Assembly: GCF_963506605.1 (NCBI RefSeq)
Contig: NC_083277.1
Span: 93,434,001 to 93,498,000 of the forward strand
Source of the DNA: Zootoca vivipara
Taxonomy: Eukaryota
Reading direction: 5' to 3'
Length of the DNA: 64,000 bases
Numbering within the stretch: the first letter of the stretch is position 1; each line of letters opens with the position of its first letter. Shown here one piece after another: positions 54,103 to 60,100 of the stretch. The position numbers were made by a program.

Positions 54103-57100
54103 GCCTCCAGGCAGCTCAAGGTGGCCTACATAGTTATCCCCCTCTCCAGAATATTATCCTGGCAACAATCCTTTGAACCGGTGTTATGTACTGAGCTGAA
54201 TCCTAGAACAATAGGATTCAGAATCAGCGGGAGCTACCCAATCCAACTCCAGGTGGAAGTGAATCCGCAACCTGATTGGCCTGCGGGAGCAGCCAATCAG
54301 GCGGCTGGCAGAAGTGAATCTGCTACCTGATTGGCCTGTAGGAGCAGCCAATCAGGCTGCAGGCAGAAGTCAATCCACAATATAATTGGCCCACAGGTGT
54401 AGCCCTGAAGTAGCCAATCACGCAAGGCCCATTGTGTAAATAATGTATATAAGCAGATGGTTTTGGGAAAAGAGCCATTCGTCTTCTCTTCTTCTCCTTG
54501 ATGAATATGAGCTGAATAAAGAGCATGAAATTCACTCTCGACTCCGAGTATATTTCACTGGCGACGAAGGTGGGATCCTGCTGAGCTGACCGCCACCACG
54601 CACTGCACCGCAGCACCGCCACCTGCTGCACCGCTGCATCGCACCGTGCATCCAGGCTTCAGCTCCAGGACCCAAGGAACCCAGAATGGCAACCGACAGC
54701 AGCTTCTTGCCATTCAAACCAGCATCAGGAGACTGGGAAGGGTACGCCGCCCGTTTCAACTTCCTCCTGCAAGCGAAAGAAGTCACCAACGATGCCATGA
54801 AGAGGGCGACATTCTTCAGCGTCTGTGGAGAGGAGACGTTTGAAATCGCCCGGGCTCTCCTTGCACCTAGAGATGTCGCTACCGTCTCTTACAAAACAAT
54901 AATGGAACGGCTGAAGGAGCACTTTTCACCACAGCCCTCGGTGGTAGCTTGCCGAAATGCCTTCTACGCAAAGCGGCAAGCCCCGGGGGAAACCATAACT
55001 GGGTTTGTGACCTCCCTCCGCCAAGCCGCCCGGTTATGCAACTTCTCAGAGTTGGAGAACATGCTTCGTGACCGCCTCGTCGGTGGCCTGAGGGACGAGA
55101 TGTTGCAACGACGCCTCTACGCCAAAAAAGACCTCACGTTCCAGATTGCTCTGGAGGAAGCCCTGGCAACCGAAGCCGCCGAGAGGTCAACGCAAGAGGC
55201 ACGACCGGCCCCGCCATCCCAACCGAGGGTCTACCACGAAGACCTCACCGACGAATCCGAATCTGACAGGGAGGAAGTACACCGAGTACAGCGGTGCACT
55301 CAAGCAGCACACACACCACAGCAGCCTCGACGAGAAGGAGGGAACTGTGCAAGCTGCGGGGAGAACCACGAGAGGAGGACCTGTCGTTTCCGCAACGCAG
55401 AGTGCAGGCAGTGCAGAAAATTGGGACACATCGCCCGGGTGTGTCGGGCTCGACTCACCCGTCGACAAGCATCAGATGACCGACCCAGGAGCCCCAGGTC
55501 ACACGGCACCATGCACCAAGGCAACTCGACGGAGATCACGGACTACCAGGTATTCCAGTTGCCCCATCCCAGCACAGAGAAAATTTATATAGAGGTACAG
55601 ATAGAGGGAGCCCCATGCCGCATGGAGCTGGACACGGGTTCAACTCTATCCATAATCTCGGCCCGAACATTAAGGGAACTGTGCCCTAATGGGGGTCCCA
55701 AACTAAGGCCGGCCCCATTCACCCTCCGGGACTTCCAGAAACGTAAGGTCCCTACAATGGGGGTGGGGACCTTCAGGGTGCAATATCGAGGGCGAAAGCA
55801 ACAATTGGACTTGCTGGTAGTTAAGGGCCCCTACGTTAGCTTACTGGGACTGGCATGGTTTGGACCTCTGGGGCTAGCCGTTACCGGGGTGAACCGCACT
55901 AGCTTACAAGTGGACGTGGACGCCATATGCAAAGAGTTTCCAGGGGTTTTCGATGGAGCATTGGGACGATATACAGGACCCCCCATTGCCCTACAGCTAG
56001 ACCCCGCTGTACGACCCATCAGGCACAAGGCCCGCCGGGTCCCGTTCGCCCTGAAACCCCGCATAGACGAGGAATTGGACCGGCTCGTGGAGCAAGGAGT
56101 GTTGGAGCCGGTGCCCAACGCCCCCTGGGAAACTCCAATTGTCACACCCGTCAAGCCTAACGGTTCGGTCCGCATCTGTGCAGACTACAAATGCACCATA
56201 AACAAGGCTCTCACGGCCCATGCATACCCAGTGCCAGTGGTCAGCCATGTCCTCGCCACCCTGGCTGGGTCAAAAATCTTTGGCAAACTGGACTTGGCCC
56301 AAGCGTATCAACAGTTGCCTGTGGACGAAGCCACAGCAGAGGCTCAGACGATTGTGACGCACAGAGGGGCATTCAGAGTAAAGCGGCTGCAATTTGGCGT
56401 TAGCGTGGCACCAGGCATATTCCAGAATCTAATGGACTCTCTCCTTAAAGGGATTCCTGGCGTCACCCCCTTCTTCGATGATGTACTGATCGCCGGGCCC
56501 ACACCAGAGGAATTTGAGGACCGCCTCCGCTCCGTCCTGCACCGTTTCCAGACGGCGGGCCTCAAGGTGAAGCGGGAAAAGTGTTTACTGGGAGTGCCGC
56601 AGGTGGACTTTCTGGGATTTAAGGTGGACGCAGAAGGGGTCCATCCAACCGGTGACAAGGTACGGGCCATTTGTGAGGCCCCAGCGCCCAAGAGCAAGCC
56701 CGAACTTCAGTCATTCTTGGGACTATTGAACTTTTACCATGCCTTCCTTCCCCATAAGGCAGCGGTAGCGGAGCCCCTACACAGACTCCTAGATAAAAGG
56801 GCCCCTTGGGTGTGGGGCCAGCGACAAAGGGCCGCATTCCAGGCAGTCAAGGACTTGCTCGTCTCGAACTCGGTCTTGGCACACTTCGACGAGAGGCTGC
56901 CAGTGGTGCTGGCATGCGACGCCTCTCCCTATGGCATCGGCGCTGTCCTGGGACACCAACTCCCGGATGGAAGAGAGGTGCCGGTGGCATACTTCTCCCA
57001 GACGCTTGCTGCAGCCGAACGAAACTACTCACAGATTGACAAGGAGGGTCTGGCAATCGTGAAGGGCGTAAAAAAATTCCATGATTTCTTGTACGGGCGG

Positions 57101-60100
57101 CCCTTTACCATAGTGACTGACCACAAGCCGTTGCTTGGCCTGTTTGCCCCCGAGAAGCAGACCCCCCAAGTGTTGTCTCCACGTGTCCTCAGGTGGTCAA
57201 TTTTCCTTGCCGGCTACCAGTATGCACTAATCCACCGCCCTGGGAAGGCGATGGGCCACGCAGACGCACTCAGCAGGCTACCACTACCAGAAACAGGCCC
57301 CGACCCAGCGCCTGCGCAAGAGGTTATGACCCTGGAGCTGCTTCCCGACCGACCCATTCAGGCACAAGAAGTTGCGCACCATTCCACAAAAGATAGGGTC
57401 ATCTCCCGGGTCCTGGACTGGGTGTGGCGAGGATGGCCCAGCAGCAGCCCCGGGCCAGAATTCGCTGGCTACACAAACCGCAAACATGAACTGTCGGCCC
57501 ACAAGGGGTGCCTGTTATGGGGAAGCAGGGTTGTTGTTCCCCAGCCCCTCCGCAAAAGGGTCCTCACAGCCCTACACGAGACACACCCAGGGGTAGTGAG
57601 GATGAAGGCCCTTGCCAGGAGTTATGTGTGGTGGCCGGGGATTGACAGAGAGATAGAGGCCTGGGTCCAACACTGCCAGACCTGCCAAGAATCCCGCCCG
57701 GATCCCCCAAGGGCCCCAGTCCAGCCCTGGGAGTCCGCCCGACATCCATGGTCACGCTTGCACGTGGACTTCGCTGGCCCCTTCCAGGGAAAAACATTCT
57801 TCATAGTGGTGGATTCCTACACCAAATGGCTGGAGGTCGCACTGGTACCGTCCACTTCTACGGCGGCAGCCATCCGGGTACTACGTAAGCTGTTTGCAAC
57901 CCACGGGCTCCCTGACACCCTCGTCTCGGACAATGGAACCGCATTCACGTCAGAGGAGTTCCAGACCTTCACAGCGCAGAACGCCATCCGCCACATCCGC
58001 TCAGCACCATTCCACCCTGCCACCAATGGCCAAGCGGAGCGCATGGTGCGGACCACCAAGGACAGCCTCCGCCGCATAACACAAGGGGACTGGGAATACC
58101 GCCTTGCCGCATTTCTTCTAGCACAGCACAGCACCCCAAGCACAACGACGGGCCGGAGCCCAGCTGAACTACTCATGGGCCGGCGCCTTGCAACTAGACT
58201 GGACCGACTTCACCCCGACAGAGCTCAGGATGAGGTAGTGGTGGGGAAAGGCAGGAACCCCCGGACATTTGTGGCCCAGGACCCAGTGTATGCAAAGAAT
58301 TTTGGGGCAGGCCCAGCATGGGTACCCGCCACAGTCACCAAGGTGACCGGTCCCGTGTCGTACGAGGTACTAACGGAAGGGGGGCAATGTTGGCGCCGCC
58401 ACTGCGACCAGCTACGGCGACGATTCCCAGGAGGAACCCGGGAGGAGAGCGGGACAGAGGGGTCCCAAGGGGACAGCAGGGCAGTGAGGCCTGTAGAGCG
58501 AGAGGGGTGGGCAGGGGAAGCAGAAGCAGTAGGCACAGAGGGGCGCCCCGAGGCTGGAAGGACACCGGAACCAGAGTCACAACCTAGTGGTTCAGTGGCG
58601 CCAGACCAGACAGCCCCGGCACAGCCAGCAGCCTCGGAACACGAGCCAGAACCAGAACCCCTGACCAAGGAACACCCCAGGCCACAACGCACACGGAGGC
58701 GGCCAGCAGACCTTGGGGACTACGAATGCAACTTCCCGGGCAGGACTGGAACTTAGAGGGGAGGGGTGTTATGTACTGAGCTGAATCCTAGAACAATAGG
58801 ATTCAGAATCAGCGGGAGCTACCCAATCCAACTCCAGGTGGAAGTGAATCCGCAACCTGATTGGCCTGCGGGAGCAGCCAATCAGGCGGCTGGCAGAAGT
58901 GAATCTGCTACCTGATTGGCCTGTAGGAGCAGCCAATCAGGCTGCAGGCAGAAGTCAATCCACAATATAATTGGCCCACAGGTGTAGCCCTGAAGTAGCC
59001 AATCACGCAAGGCCCATTGTGTAAATAATGTATATAAGCAGATGGTTTTGGGAAAAGAGCCATTCGTCTTCTCTTCTTCTCCTTGATGAATATGAGCTGA
59101 ATAAAGAGCATGAAATTCACTCTCGACTCCGAGTATATTTCAACCAGATTAGGCTGAAAGACAGTGAGTGGCCCAAAATCGACCATATCCAACCAATAAA
59201 TTGCTTCGTTCTATAGGAAAACCAGTACTGTACTCCCAATTTTGTTTTGAGCCACACCCTCATGGCAGCCATTTTGTGTCAAGCCGCACGCCTTTTGGCA
59301 GCCATTTTGTGACCAGTGCGCATGACATTCTCTCAACATTCCAAATATGCCACCTGGCCGAATAAAAGTTGGGTGACCTCTGTGCTGAAGGCAGTAATAA
59401 TAAAGTTGCTACCATATAACCAGCAGGGGGCGCTTGTTCTGCTAAGAGTTTGGTGGCAAAGGACGTTTGTCAAGTACAATTTTGCCTACTGGAAGTGTTA
59501 AGAGCCATCTGCTTCCCTCTCCCACACATCACATTATAAAAAAGTATTTATTTAAAACATGCTATAACTGTTCTATTTGTAAAAATTCTAAGTGGCTTAC
59601 AAAGGGAAACAAATACACCCCCAAATGAATTCAAAAATACATTTGTAAGAAGAAAAAGAACAAGAAGAAAACAGTGTGAAAAAGCCACCAAAGGTTTACC
59701 TAAATAAAAATAACATATATAGAAGCCAATTGCCTCAATCCATGGTAATGTGGACAGTGAAGCAGACAGAAGCTTGATAAAAGACTGCAGTCCTGTGCAC
59801 TCTTTACCATTTGCAAAACAAGCTACATGAAATGCAGTAGGATTTACTTCTAAGTAGACATGGCTAGGTGGGAATTGTGTGCCCAACTTCAGGTTTTCAA
59901 AGTGTTTCATGTTCATCATCTCAATAATCTTTAAAACAGCCTCGCATGGTAGGTCAGTAGAATACCCTCACCCTGAAAGCCATAGTTTACCTAAGCTCCT
60001 GAAATCTGAATTTGTAGTAGAGGTTGATCACAGATTTGAACAGCTCAATTCAAGCCCAAACTGGGTTTTTTTGGGGGAAATGCCTCAAAATGCAGTATTG

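What the first reader, a model, noticed from the sequence alone, without database searches (positions are those of the whole stretch)
54182..59142. Intact, very young Mag-like Gypsy LTR retrotransposon, potentially still active and polymorphic
Seen: both 376-bp LTRs look identical by manual comparison. The 4071-nt gag-pol ORF has no stop or frameshift, PBS and PPT are intact, and the element keeps abundant CpGs while the host flanks are CpG-depleted. Known: LTRs are identical at insertion, and the double knuckle CX2CX3HX4C + CX2CX4HX4C with a tRNA-Ser PBS is typical of the Mag lineage. Inference: a recent insertion of a replication-competent family, possibly insertion-polymorphic or horizontally acquired.
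Basis: partly seen in the sequence, partly recalled or inferred. Interest (0 to 1): 0.75.

Follow-up and report, generated by a model that had tools for sequence, protein, structure and literature searches.

The report
Intact young lizard Gypsy retrotransposon
A complete-looking, recently inserted copy of a Gypsy-type jumping gene sits in this stretch of lizard chromosome; it is an ordinary member of a well-known kind, useful mainly as a population marker and for tidying gene annotation.

Summary
Window 54182-59142 is a 4,961-bp LTR retrotransposon. Its two 376-bp LTRs show 0 differences and have TG...CA ends. The 5-bp target duplication matches at 4 of 5 bases. The 12-nt complement of the primer-binding site matches a tRNA-Ser(GCU) 3' end at 11 of 12. 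There is a 12-nt polypurine tract and one uninterrupted 1,356-codon gag-pol frame. That frame encodes a capsid fold, two zinc knuckles, protease, RT, RNase H and integrase, and keeps 157 of 157 strongly conserved columns. By protein match the host is the lizard Zootoca vivipara: a second copy is 1351/1356 identical and heads a cluster of 133 sequences. "Very young" is only bounded, since 0/376 differences allows up to about 2-5 My under assumed rates. Horizontal acquisition is not supported, because partial copies about 94-95% identical in the pol core occur in Podarcis and Lacerta. Mag-lineage features fit, but placement against reference elements could not be run. Activity and polymorphism remain untested. 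Verdict: ordinary, a new member of a known kind.

The parts
54177..54181 (.). Left copy of the 5-bp target-site duplication (ACCGG)
   Evidence: Flank read. It matches the right copy at 4 of 5 bases; the difference lies at a CpG.
54182..54557 (+). 5' LTR, 376 bp, TG...CA ends; begins TGTTATGT
   Evidence: 376/376 identical to the 3' LTR. The 5' end fits the 'Mag C' motif TGTNATRT at 8/8, and the 3' end fits AYANAACA at 6/8 (motifs from PMC3601003; compared by eye).
54256..54391 (+). U3 tandem repeat, 2.5 copies of a 55-bp unit, each carrying an ATTGG...CCAAT inverted pair (candidate enhancer/promoter module)
   Evidence: TRF reports period 55, 2.5 copies, 83% matches. The LTR holds 4 CCAAT and 3 ATTGG, against about 0.7 expected by my arithmetic. 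Binding by a CCAAT factor is inference.
54446..54452 (+). TATA-like box (TATATAA) in the LTR
   Evidence: Motif position. The promoter role is inferred, not shown.
54515..54520 (+). AATAAA polyadenylation signal in the LTR (would set the R/U5 border a little downstream)
   Evidence: Motif position. The role is inferred.
54559..54576 (+). Primer-binding site, 18 nt, starting with TGG 2 nt after the LTR
   Evidence: Sequence read. The complement of its first 12 nt matches Ser_GCU 3' ends at 11/12 in the supplement of PMC13524379. The lizard's own tRNA was not available.
54686..58756 (+). Single gag-pol ORF, 1,356 codons plus stop, uninterrupted; ATG in a Kozak-like context (A at -3, G at +4)
   Evidence: It keeps 157 of 157 columns that are at least 95% conserved among the other 119 aligned homologues.
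54713..55201 (+). Capsid (CA)-like two-lobed all-helical domain of Gag, about residues 10-172
   Evidence: AlphaFold2 10-residue-block mean pLDDT is 94-99 over residues 11-170, with nine helices. Best PDB folds: dArc1 capsid (TM 0.71-0.74 on target), PNMA2 0.60-0.61, Ty3 capsid 0.58, MLV CA. The best E-value is 2.3e-3 and no hit reaches E <= 0.001. Pfam gave no gag family at E <= 0.01.
55346..55444 (+). Nucleocapsid: two zinc knuckles, CX2CX3HX4C then CX2CX4HX4C (residues 221-253)
   Evidence: Read. The same pair and spacing occurs in 83 of the 120 hits, and in 71 of the 77 that are at least 1,200 aa long.
55589..55858 (+). Aspartic protease, residues 302-391, with a D-T-G active-site motif
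   Evidence: Pfam gag-asp_proteas E 0.0014, below the curated cut-off. The catalytic D is shared by 110 of 113 aligned homologues.
56183..56626 (+). Reverse transcriptase (Pfam RVT_1, residues 500-647), catalytic motif F-F-D-D
   Evidence: Pfam E 9.1e-19. Ty3 RT/RNase H structure 4ol8 E 7.5e-64 over residues 438-864. The two D residues are shared by 111/114 and 113/114 homologues.
56813..57217 (+). RNase H, residues 710-844
   Evidence: Pfam RT_RNaseH_2 E 2.6e-33 and RT_RNaseH E 1.1e-31. The acidic residues checked are shared by 116-117 of 118 homologues.
57536..58018 (+). Integrase: H2C2 zinc domain (residues 951-1005) and DDE catalytic core (1021-1111)
   Evidence: Pfam Integrase_H2C2 E 1.5e-17 and rve E 6.7e-14. 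Ty3 Gag-Pol in intasome entry 7q5b E 4e-88 over residues 438-1166. H, H, C, C, D, D and E are all present and shared by 109-117 of 111-117 homologues. Pfam reports no chromodomain.
58406..58753 (+). Low-complexity Pro/Glu/Gly-rich C-terminal tail (residues 1241-1356), ending in a basic...P...D-Y motif
   Evidence: Translation. No column here is at least 95% conserved. A loose terminal motif is found in 47 of 78 sequences of at least 1,200 aa. Function unknown.
58755..58766 (+). Polypurine tract, 12 nt, overlapping the stop codon and abutting the 3' LTR
58767..59142 (+). 3' LTR, 376 bp
   Evidence: Identical to the 5' LTR.
59143..59147 (.). Right copy of the target-site duplication (ACCAG)

Best explanation
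This is a recent germ-line insertion of an autonomous Ty3/Gypsy (Metaviridae) LTR retrotransposon without env. It most probably belongs to the Mag lineage. The host is a lacertid lizard, Zootoca vivipara by protein match.

How it would work; every step is inferred from the anatomy and from established knowledge of LTR retroelements, and none is shown here. Transcription starts in the 5' LTR downstream of the TATA-like box, driven by a U3 that carries 2.5 copies of a 55-bp repeat full of CCAAT boxes. It ends after the AATAAA of the 3' LTR. The single frame is translated into one Gag-Pol polyprotein, which the element's own aspartic protease cuts into capsid, a two-knuckle nucleocapsid, RT/RNase H and integrase. 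A host tRNA-Ser(GCU) anneals to the PBS and primes minus-strand DNA. The polypurine tract primes the plus strand. Integrase then joins the TG...CA ends into the chromosome with a 5-bp staggered cut.

The copy belongs to a family with many near-identical paralogues in the same genome. That family has been resident in lacertids since before Zootoca, Lacerta and Podarcis split. The insertion is therefore young and vertically inherited at the family level, not a fresh arrival from outside.
For: - Structure: identical 376-bp LTRs, TG...CA ends, 4/5 TSD, PPT and PBS in the canonical places.
- PBS: 11/12 to tRNA-Ser(GCU) 3' ends.
- ORF: uninterrupted, 1,356 codons.
- Domains: order PR-RT-RH-IN with no chromodomain and no room for env. 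The best solved relatives are yeast Ty3 Gag-Pol (E 4e-88) and Ty3 RT (E 7.5e-64).
- Gag: the N-terminal part folds as a retroelement capsid.
- Conservation: 157/157 conserved columns and all catalytic residues checked are kept.
- Family: P0001, named by NCBI as from Zootoca vivipara, is 1351/1356 identical and represents a 90%-identity cluster of 133 sequences.
- CpG observed/expected: 0.65 inside the element against 0.27-0.35 in the host background.
- Lacertid relatives: partial models in Podarcis raffonei (94.8% over 715 core columns) and Lacerta agilis (94.3% over 634) form an exclusive clade with the window copy in 100/100 bootstraps.
- Literature: active, polymorphic Gypsy elements are already documented in another lizard, Anolis (PMC7561263, passages).
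Against: - The TSD is imperfect (4/5). Either a substitution occurred after insertion, which sits oddly with 0 changes in 752 bp of LTR, or the site is variable or mis-called.
- The LTRs are short, so their identity says little about age.
- The PBS has one mismatch to the non-lizard tRNA-Ser(GCU) ends available, and the lizard tRNA could not be checked.
The 133 sequences may therefore include isoforms, fragments or other species.
- No nucleotide copies from the host genome could be fetched, so copy number, solo LTRs and empty sites are unknown.
- Mag placement rests on features, not on a tree with reference elements.
- No expression or population data were available.
Confidence: 0.85

Rival explanations
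1. The family reached Zootoca recently by horizontal transfer from a distant taxon.
For: - The wider lineage shows host-parasite patterns. A Rhipicephalus microplus element nests inside the squamate clade (100/100), and an Ornithodoros element groups with Trichinella (96/100).
- A published screen reports Gypsy-overlapping transfer candidates in several genomes including Zootoca vivipara (PMC13465657, passages only; its supplementary tables were not opened).
- The element's high CpG content differs from the host background.
Against: - The nearest relatives of this family are lacertid: Podarcis raffonei at 94.8% and Lacerta agilis at 94.3% in the pol core, an exclusive clade in 100/100 bootstraps.
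- The next clades out are also squamate or unnamed.
- No non-squamate named hit exceeds 68% in the core.
- CpG retention is expected for any lineage that has kept replicating.
Confidence: 0.05
2. The insertion is old, and the LTRs were made identical by gene conversion between them.
For: The TSD differs at 1 of 5 positions while the LTRs differ at 0 of 376. LTR-LTR conversion is a known process (general knowledge).
Against: - An old insertion would not keep a 4,071-nt frame open.
- It would not keep 157/157 conserved columns.
- It would not keep a CpG o/e of 0.65 in the internal part.
- It would not differ at only 5 of 1,356 residues from another copy.
Confidence: 0.04
3. The LTR identity, or the whole copy, is an assembly product (collapse or polishing of a repeated family onto one sequence).
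For: The family is multi-copy and nearly identical, the situation in which assemblers and polishers can homogenise copies.
Against: The junctions are clean and carry a recognisable TSD. The flanks are unique in the window. The copy differs from the cluster representative at 5 residues, so it is not simply the family's commonest sequence. This could not be tested with reads.
Confidence: 0.04
4. It is a host gene derived from a retrotransposon (the public name 'uncharacterized protein K02A2.6-like' treats it as a gene).
For: Sources list the protein as a predicted host protein.
Against: It has both LTRs, a PBS, a PPT and a TSD, and it sits in a cluster of 133 near-identical sequences. Domesticated genes lack these parts and are single-copy and orthologous.
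Confidence: 0.01

Closest known systems
Mag lineage of Ty3/Gypsy (Mag of Bombyx mori; SURL of sea urchins, 'C-clade'; Jule of Xiphophorus, the first complete vertebrate member)
   Same: - It has no env and no chromodomain.
- The nucleocapsid has two CCHC arrays (PMC2577118, passages).
- The PBS is for tRNA-Ser (Culex Mag elements use Ser or Leu, PMC3286476, passages).
- The TSD is 5 bp, there is one ORF, and the element is about 5 kb (same table in PMC3286476).
- The LTR begins TGTTATGT, which fits the 'Mag C' 5' motif TGTNATRT (PMC3601003, passages).
- The lineage is reported from protostomes, echinoderms and vertebrates (PMC6238403 and PMC8220671, passages).
   Different: - The LTR is 376 bp, longer than the 119-304 bp of the Culex Mag elements tabulated.
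- The LTR 3' end fits the Mag C motif at only 6/8.
- The first knuckle has an X3 rather than an X4 spacer, a spacing shared by 83 of the 120 relatives examined.
- No reference Mag, SURL or Jule sequence could be fetched, so relatedness was not measured. The Jule paper was seen only as a citation.
Ty3 of Saccharomyces cerevisiae (solved Gag-Pol/intasome 7q5b, RT 4ol8, capsid 6r24)
   Same: Same domain order. It is the best sequence match among solved structures (E 4e-88 and 7.5e-64), and it has a capsid fold of the same class.
   Different: Ty3 is a fungal element of another Ty3/Gypsy branch (assigned from recall). Only RT to IN align by sequence. The capsid likeness is by fold only (TM 0.58 on the target).
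Caenorhabditis elegans K02A2.6 (the name that sources transfer to this protein)
   Same: NCBI and UniRef call the window's family and most of its 120 relatives 'K02A2.6-like'.
   Different: I could not retrieve K02A2.6 itself. I also found no paper linking it to a named Cer or Mag element. The name is therefore a label, not a test.
Polymorphic Gypsy elements of Anolis carolinensis
   Same: They are a squamate host's Gypsy elements, with many private insertions read as recent transposition (PMC7561263, passages).
   Different: Different host family. That paper does not give lineages within Gypsy in the passages I saw, and no sequence comparison was made.

Membership tests
LTR retrotransposon | Two direct long terminal repeats with TG...CA ends | tested here: met
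   376/376 identical LTRs, beginning TG and ending CA.
LTR retrotransposon | Short target-site duplication flanking the element | tested here: met
   5 bp, ACCGG / ACCAG, 4 of 5. The chance of at least 4/5 is about 1.6% by my arithmetic.
LTR retrotransposon | tRNA primer-binding site next to the 5' LTR and polypurine tract next to the 3' LTR | tested here: met
   The PBS starts TGG 2 nt after the LTR and matches Ser(GCU) ends at 11/12. A 12-nt purine run abuts the 3' LTR.
Ty3/Gypsy (Metaviridae) | Pol domain order PR-RT-RNase H-IN | tested here: met
   Pfam domain positions 302-391, 500-647, 710-844 and 951-1111.
Ty3/Gypsy (Metaviridae) | RT/IN closest to Ty3/Gypsy references rather than to Copia, BEL or retroviruses | tested here: met
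   Among solved structures, Ty3 ranks first (E 4e-88). A caulimovirus-type 'Enzymatic polyprotein' and retroviral RTs and INs follow far behind.
Mag lineage | Falls with Mag, SURL, Jule and other references in RT/RH/IN phylogenies | not testable with these tools
   No tool fetches GyDB or Repbase references. None came back as a named hit among the 120 listed of 650.
Mag lineage | Nucleocapsid with two CCHC arrays | tested here: met
   Two knuckles at residues 221-253. Criterion from PMC2577118.
Mag lineage | PBS complementary to tRNA-Ser (or Leu) | tested here: met
   11/12 to a Ser_GCU 3' end. The other types I compared by eye scored 9/12 or less. Criterion from PMC3286476. The lizard tRNA was not available.
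Mag lineage | No env and no chromodomain | tested here: met
   The stop codon overlaps the PPT, so no further ORF fits. Pfam finds no chromodomain at E <= 0.01. That this feature is defining comes from recall.
Mag lineage (C clade) | LTR end motifs TGTNATRT ... AYANAACA | tested here: inconclusive
   5' end 8/8, 3' end 6/8 (motifs from PMC3601003; by eye). That paper's own Mag C model had 0% sensitivity.
Endogenous retrovirus (Retroviridae) | env gene, and retroviral RT/IN as closest relatives | tested here: not met
   There is no env. Retroviral RTs score E 1e-19 or worse against Ty3's 4e-88.
Chromovirus | Chromodomain at the integrase C-terminus | tested here: not met
   No Pfam chromodomain. 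The C-terminal tail is low-complexity.
Domesticated Gypsy-derived host gene | Loss of LTRs, PBS and PPT; single-copy orthologue | tested here: not met
   All terminal structures are present, and the 90% cluster holds 133 sequences.

The most novel reading that the evidence does not exclude
The Gypsy lineage to which this element belongs has moved between squamate reptiles and their arthropod parasites. A multi-copy element of the cattle tick Rhipicephalus microplus (P0008, a cluster of 41 sequences, with further fragments on chromosome-sized contigs) nests inside an otherwise squamate-only clade that includes the window element. The window's own family would then be a still-transposing, insertion-polymorphic branch of a lineage prone to such transfers.
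Probability: 0.35. Interest if true: 0.5.

Novelty: new member of a known kind. Interest (0 to 1): 0.2.

Why it matters
The stakes are modest.
- Amniotes with structurally intact, multi-copy Gypsy elements are mostly squamates. A named, fully described copy gives a handle for presence/absence markers in Zootoca vivipara, a species studied for its reproductive-mode and sex-chromosome variation.
- The public protein sets list this ORF and many paralogues as 'uncharacterized protein K02A2.6-like' host proteins: clusters of 133, 67, 7 and 1 sequences for Zootoca. Recognising them as transposon ORFs cleans up gene counts.
- The copy lies about 1.6 kb from a CpG-island-like stretch, so it could matter locally for regulation if it is polymorphic.
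- None of this changes what is known about how such elements work.

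Tried and rejected
- No tRNA gene and no Rfam family is present in the window, so the PBS could not be paired with a host tRNA.
- No other copy, fragment or solo LTR of the family lies in the window. The flanks are not repeated apart from an (ATA)n microsatellite.
- Host context: Pfam scans found MYCBPAP (about 6540-6974) and an ENTH/epsin exon (28033-28617) only (25 ORFs).
  - 125 of 125 stop-to-stop ORFs of at least 45 aa in 48071-54181 and 59143-64000 gave nothing except two hits below the curated cut-off.
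  - 99 of the 206 such ORFs in 30000-48070 gave nothing.
  - Whether the element is intronic or intergenic therefore stays open.
- Literature: searches for K02A2.6 (24 papers, 15 listed) and for K02A2 with Cer1 gave no link to a named element. The original mag paper (PMC333496) is not held.
- Literature: searches 'Zootoca vivipara' + 'transposable elements' + 'LTR' (20 papers, 15 listed) and 'Zootoca' + 'Gypsy' (11 papers, 10 listed) showed no description of this family in titles or abstracts.
- The sigma-70 promoter and terminator scan is not meaningful for a eukaryotic LTR, and I ignored it.
- Comparing the 5 residue differences between the window copy and P0001 with relatives did not show which copy is derived.
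- Rejected readings: ERV (no env), chromovirus (no chromodomain) and domesticated gene (LTRs present).

Full report
**Anatomy.** The stretch 54182-59142 is a 4,961-bp LTR retrotransposon on the + strand.
- The two LTRs (54182-54557 and 58767-59142) are 376 bp each and differ at 0 positions. The identity extends 2 bases to the left and none to the right (searches agree).
- The LTRs begin TG and end CA.
- The five bases outside each end read ACCGG (left) and ACCAG (right). This is a 5-bp target-site duplication matching at 4 of 5, and the difference lies at a CpG.
- Two bases after the 5' LTR an 18-nt primer-binding site begins with TGG (54559-54576).
- A 12-nt purine run (58755-58766) overlaps the stop codon and abuts the 3' LTR.
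- Inside the LTR are 2.5 copies of a 55-bp tandem repeat at 54256-54391. They contribute most of the LTR's 4 CCAAT and 3 ATTGG motifs.
- The LTR also holds a TATATAA at 54446 and an AATAAA at 54515.
- The U3/R/U5 borders and the promoter role of these motifs are inferred, not shown.

**Coding capacity.** One frame runs from 54686 to 58756: 1,356 codons with no internal stop.
- Pfam finds a protease (weak, below cut-off), RVT_1, two RNase H models, the integrase H2C2 zinc domain and the rve core, in the Ty3/Gypsy order. It finds no chromodomain.
- Among solved structures the best sequence matches are yeast Ty3 Gag-Pol (7q5b, E 4e-88, residues 438-1166) and Ty3 RT/RNase H (4ol8, E 7.5e-64). Retroviral enzymes follow far behind.
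- Pfam gave no gag family. I therefore folded residues 1-300 as they stand, using an alignment of 56 of the 120 relatives.
  - The 10-residue-block mean pLDDT is 94-99 over residues 11-170, with nine helices.
  - The nearest PDB folds are all retroelement capsids: dArc1 (TM 0.71-0.74 on the target), PNMA2 (0.60-0.61), Ty3 capsid (0.58) and MLV CA.
  - No hit reaches E <= 0.001; the best is 2.3e-3.
The same X3 + X4 pair occurs in 83 of 120 relatives, and in 71 of the 77 that are at least 1,200 aa long.
- Against the other 119 aligned sequences, the window copy keeps 157 of 157 columns that are at least 95% conserved. It also keeps every catalytic residue I checked.
- The RT motif is F-F-D-D. 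The first F is the minority state (19/115), and the rest is the family norm.

**Host and family.** I do not take the window for human.
- The best protein hit, P0001, is named by NCBI 'uncharacterized protein K02A2.6-like [Zootoca vivipara]'. It is 1351/1356 identical to the window ORF without gaps, so it is a second copy.
- P0001 represents a 90%-identity cluster of 133 sequences.
- Other Zootoca clusters in the same search (67, 7 and 1 sequences, at 52-55% identity to the window ORF) show several related families in this genome.
- Host genes in the window fit a vertebrate chromosome: a MYCBPAP exon near 6.5 kb and an ENTH (epsin) exon at 28.0-28.6 kb.
- These exons were scanned ORF by ORF only.

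**Age.**
- Zero differences in 376 bp is weak evidence. For assumed neutral rates of 0.8e-9 to 2.4e-9 per site per year, the 95% upper bound is 5.0 to 1.7 My. These rates are my assumption and were taken from no call or paper.
- The open frame, the 5-residue distance to another copy and a CpG o/e of 0.654 inside the element all point to a recent insertion. The left flank scores 0.265 and the rest of the window 0.351.
- The mismatched TSD shows that the age need not be zero, or that the site is variable.
- The LTRs themselves have a CpG o/e of only 0.389. The right flank is raised to 0.481 by a CpG-island-like stretch.

**Horizontal acquisition.** I built a neighbour-joining tree of 789 RT-RH-IN columns for all 121 sequences. 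A 100-replicate bootstrap used 47 of them.
- The window copy and P0001 form an exclusive clade with partial gene models from Podarcis raffonei (94.8% over 715 columns) and Lacerta agilis (94.3% over 634 columns), in 100/100 replicates.
- Those two models are fragmentary. They have 2 and 5 internal gaps of at least 10 residues relative to the window ORF.
- The next relatives are Lacerta and unnamed sequences at 75-78%, then geckos.
- The family is thus shared by three lacertid genera. Vertical residence with continued activity in Zootoca is the simplest reading.
- No nucleotide comparison with those genomes was possible, so transfer among lacertids cannot be excluded.

**Mag lineage.** Papers define Mag phylogenetically (A, B and C clades; PMC6238403 and PMC8220671, passages) and report it in vertebrates since Jule, which I saw only as a citation.
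- Reported features that fit:
  - two CCHC arrays (PMC2577118, passages);
  - a tRNA-Ser or tRNA-Leu PBS, mostly 5-bp TSDs and 1-2 ORFs in Culex Mag elements (PMC3286476, table and passages);
  - the Mag C LTR 5' end TGTNATRT (PMC3601003, passages).
- For the PBS, the 12-nt complement matches the three Ser_GCU entries of the tRNA table in the supplement of PMC13524379 at 11/12, 10/12 and 9/12. I compared by eye.
- The LTR 3' end fits the Mag C motif at only 6/8.
- No reference Mag, SURL or Jule protein could be fetched or came back as a named hit. Membership is therefore likely, not shown.

**Not checked.**
Genome-wide copy number, solo LTRs, empty sites, reads, expression and small RNAs all remain unexamined.
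- The supplements of PMC13465657 (transfer candidates in Zootoca) were not opened and may bear on the transfer question.
- bioRxiv supplements are closed.

**Side observations.**
- The cattle-tick protein P0008 (cluster of 41) and the unnamed P0007 nest inside the squamate clade. The smallest clade holding the window copy and P0008 has 17 members, all squamate or unnamed, in 100/100 replicates.
  - A reciprocal search with P0008 gave Rhipicephalus fragments on chromosome-sized contigs, and then lizards as the best named hits (bits 1717-1639).
  - These ranked ahead of the soft tick Ornithodoros (1592) and other arachnids. No other hard tick appeared among the 120 listed.
  - Sampling is biased toward relatives of the queries.
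- A CpG-island-like stretch lies 1.6 kb beyond the 3' LTR.

**Verdict.** The element is an ordinary, intact, young, env-less Gypsy element of a lizard. The evidence does not support outside acquisition, and activity and polymorphism remain open.

Noticed in passing
Proteins P0008, P0007, P0121-P0123 (no window coordinates): A multi-copy Rhipicephalus microplus (cattle tick) Gypsy polyprotein nests inside the otherwise squamate-only clade that holds the window element (100/100 NJ bootstraps, 47 of 121 sequences). In a reciprocal search its best named non-self hits are lizards. This suggests an old squamate-tick horizontal transfer, although sampling is biased toward relatives of the queries.
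   Followed up: partly
Proteins P0015, P0050, P0078 (no window coordinates): The soft-tick (Ornithodoros turicata) element groups exclusively with Trichinella elements in 96/100 bootstraps. This is another parasite-parasite pairing within the same lineage.
   Followed up: no
window 60751-61750: A CpG-island-like stretch (GC 0.59-0.69, CpG o/e 0.65-0.83 in 500-bp windows) lies about 1.6 kb beyond the 3' LTR. No Pfam domain was found in its ORFs, and it may be a host promoter.
   Followed up: partly
window 6540-6974 and 28033-28617: Host exons on the + strand: a MYCBPAP-family segment (E 2.2e-10) and a complete ENTH domain (E 2.3e-54, an epsin-type gene). The element has the same orientation and lies about 26 kb downstream of the ENTH exon.
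   Followed up: partly
window 17251-19500: A 2-kb GC-rich (0.63-0.66) CpG-island-like block carries long ORFs on both strands (up to 357 aa) and no Pfam match. It is probably a promoter or first-exon region between the two host genes.
   Followed up: no
window 54256-54391 (and 58841-58976): Each 55-bp unit of the LTR tandem repeat holds an 8-bp-arm palindrome made of ATTGG and CCAAT boxes. The result is seven CCAAT-type motifs in a 376-bp LTR.
   Followed up: partly
window 58406-58753 (ORF residues 1241-1356): The integrase is followed by a poorly conserved Pro/Glu/Gly-rich tail ending in a short basic...P...D-Y motif. A loose version occurs in 47 of 78 long relatives. It might take the place of the targeting domain of chromoviruses; function unknown.
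   Followed up: no
window 54058-54102, 39459-39509, 52126-52178, 3880-3931: (ATA)n/(TAT)n microsatellites recur in the window. One lies 80 bp upstream of the insertion site.
   Followed up: no
Protein P0083 (no window coordinates): A snake gene model named FK506-binding protein 15 (Erythrolamprus reginae, 2,081 aa) contains a full pol of this lineage. Similar fusions occur in Trichinella (LanC-like, P0142). These are probably annotation chimeras of transposon ORFs with host genes.
   Followed up: no
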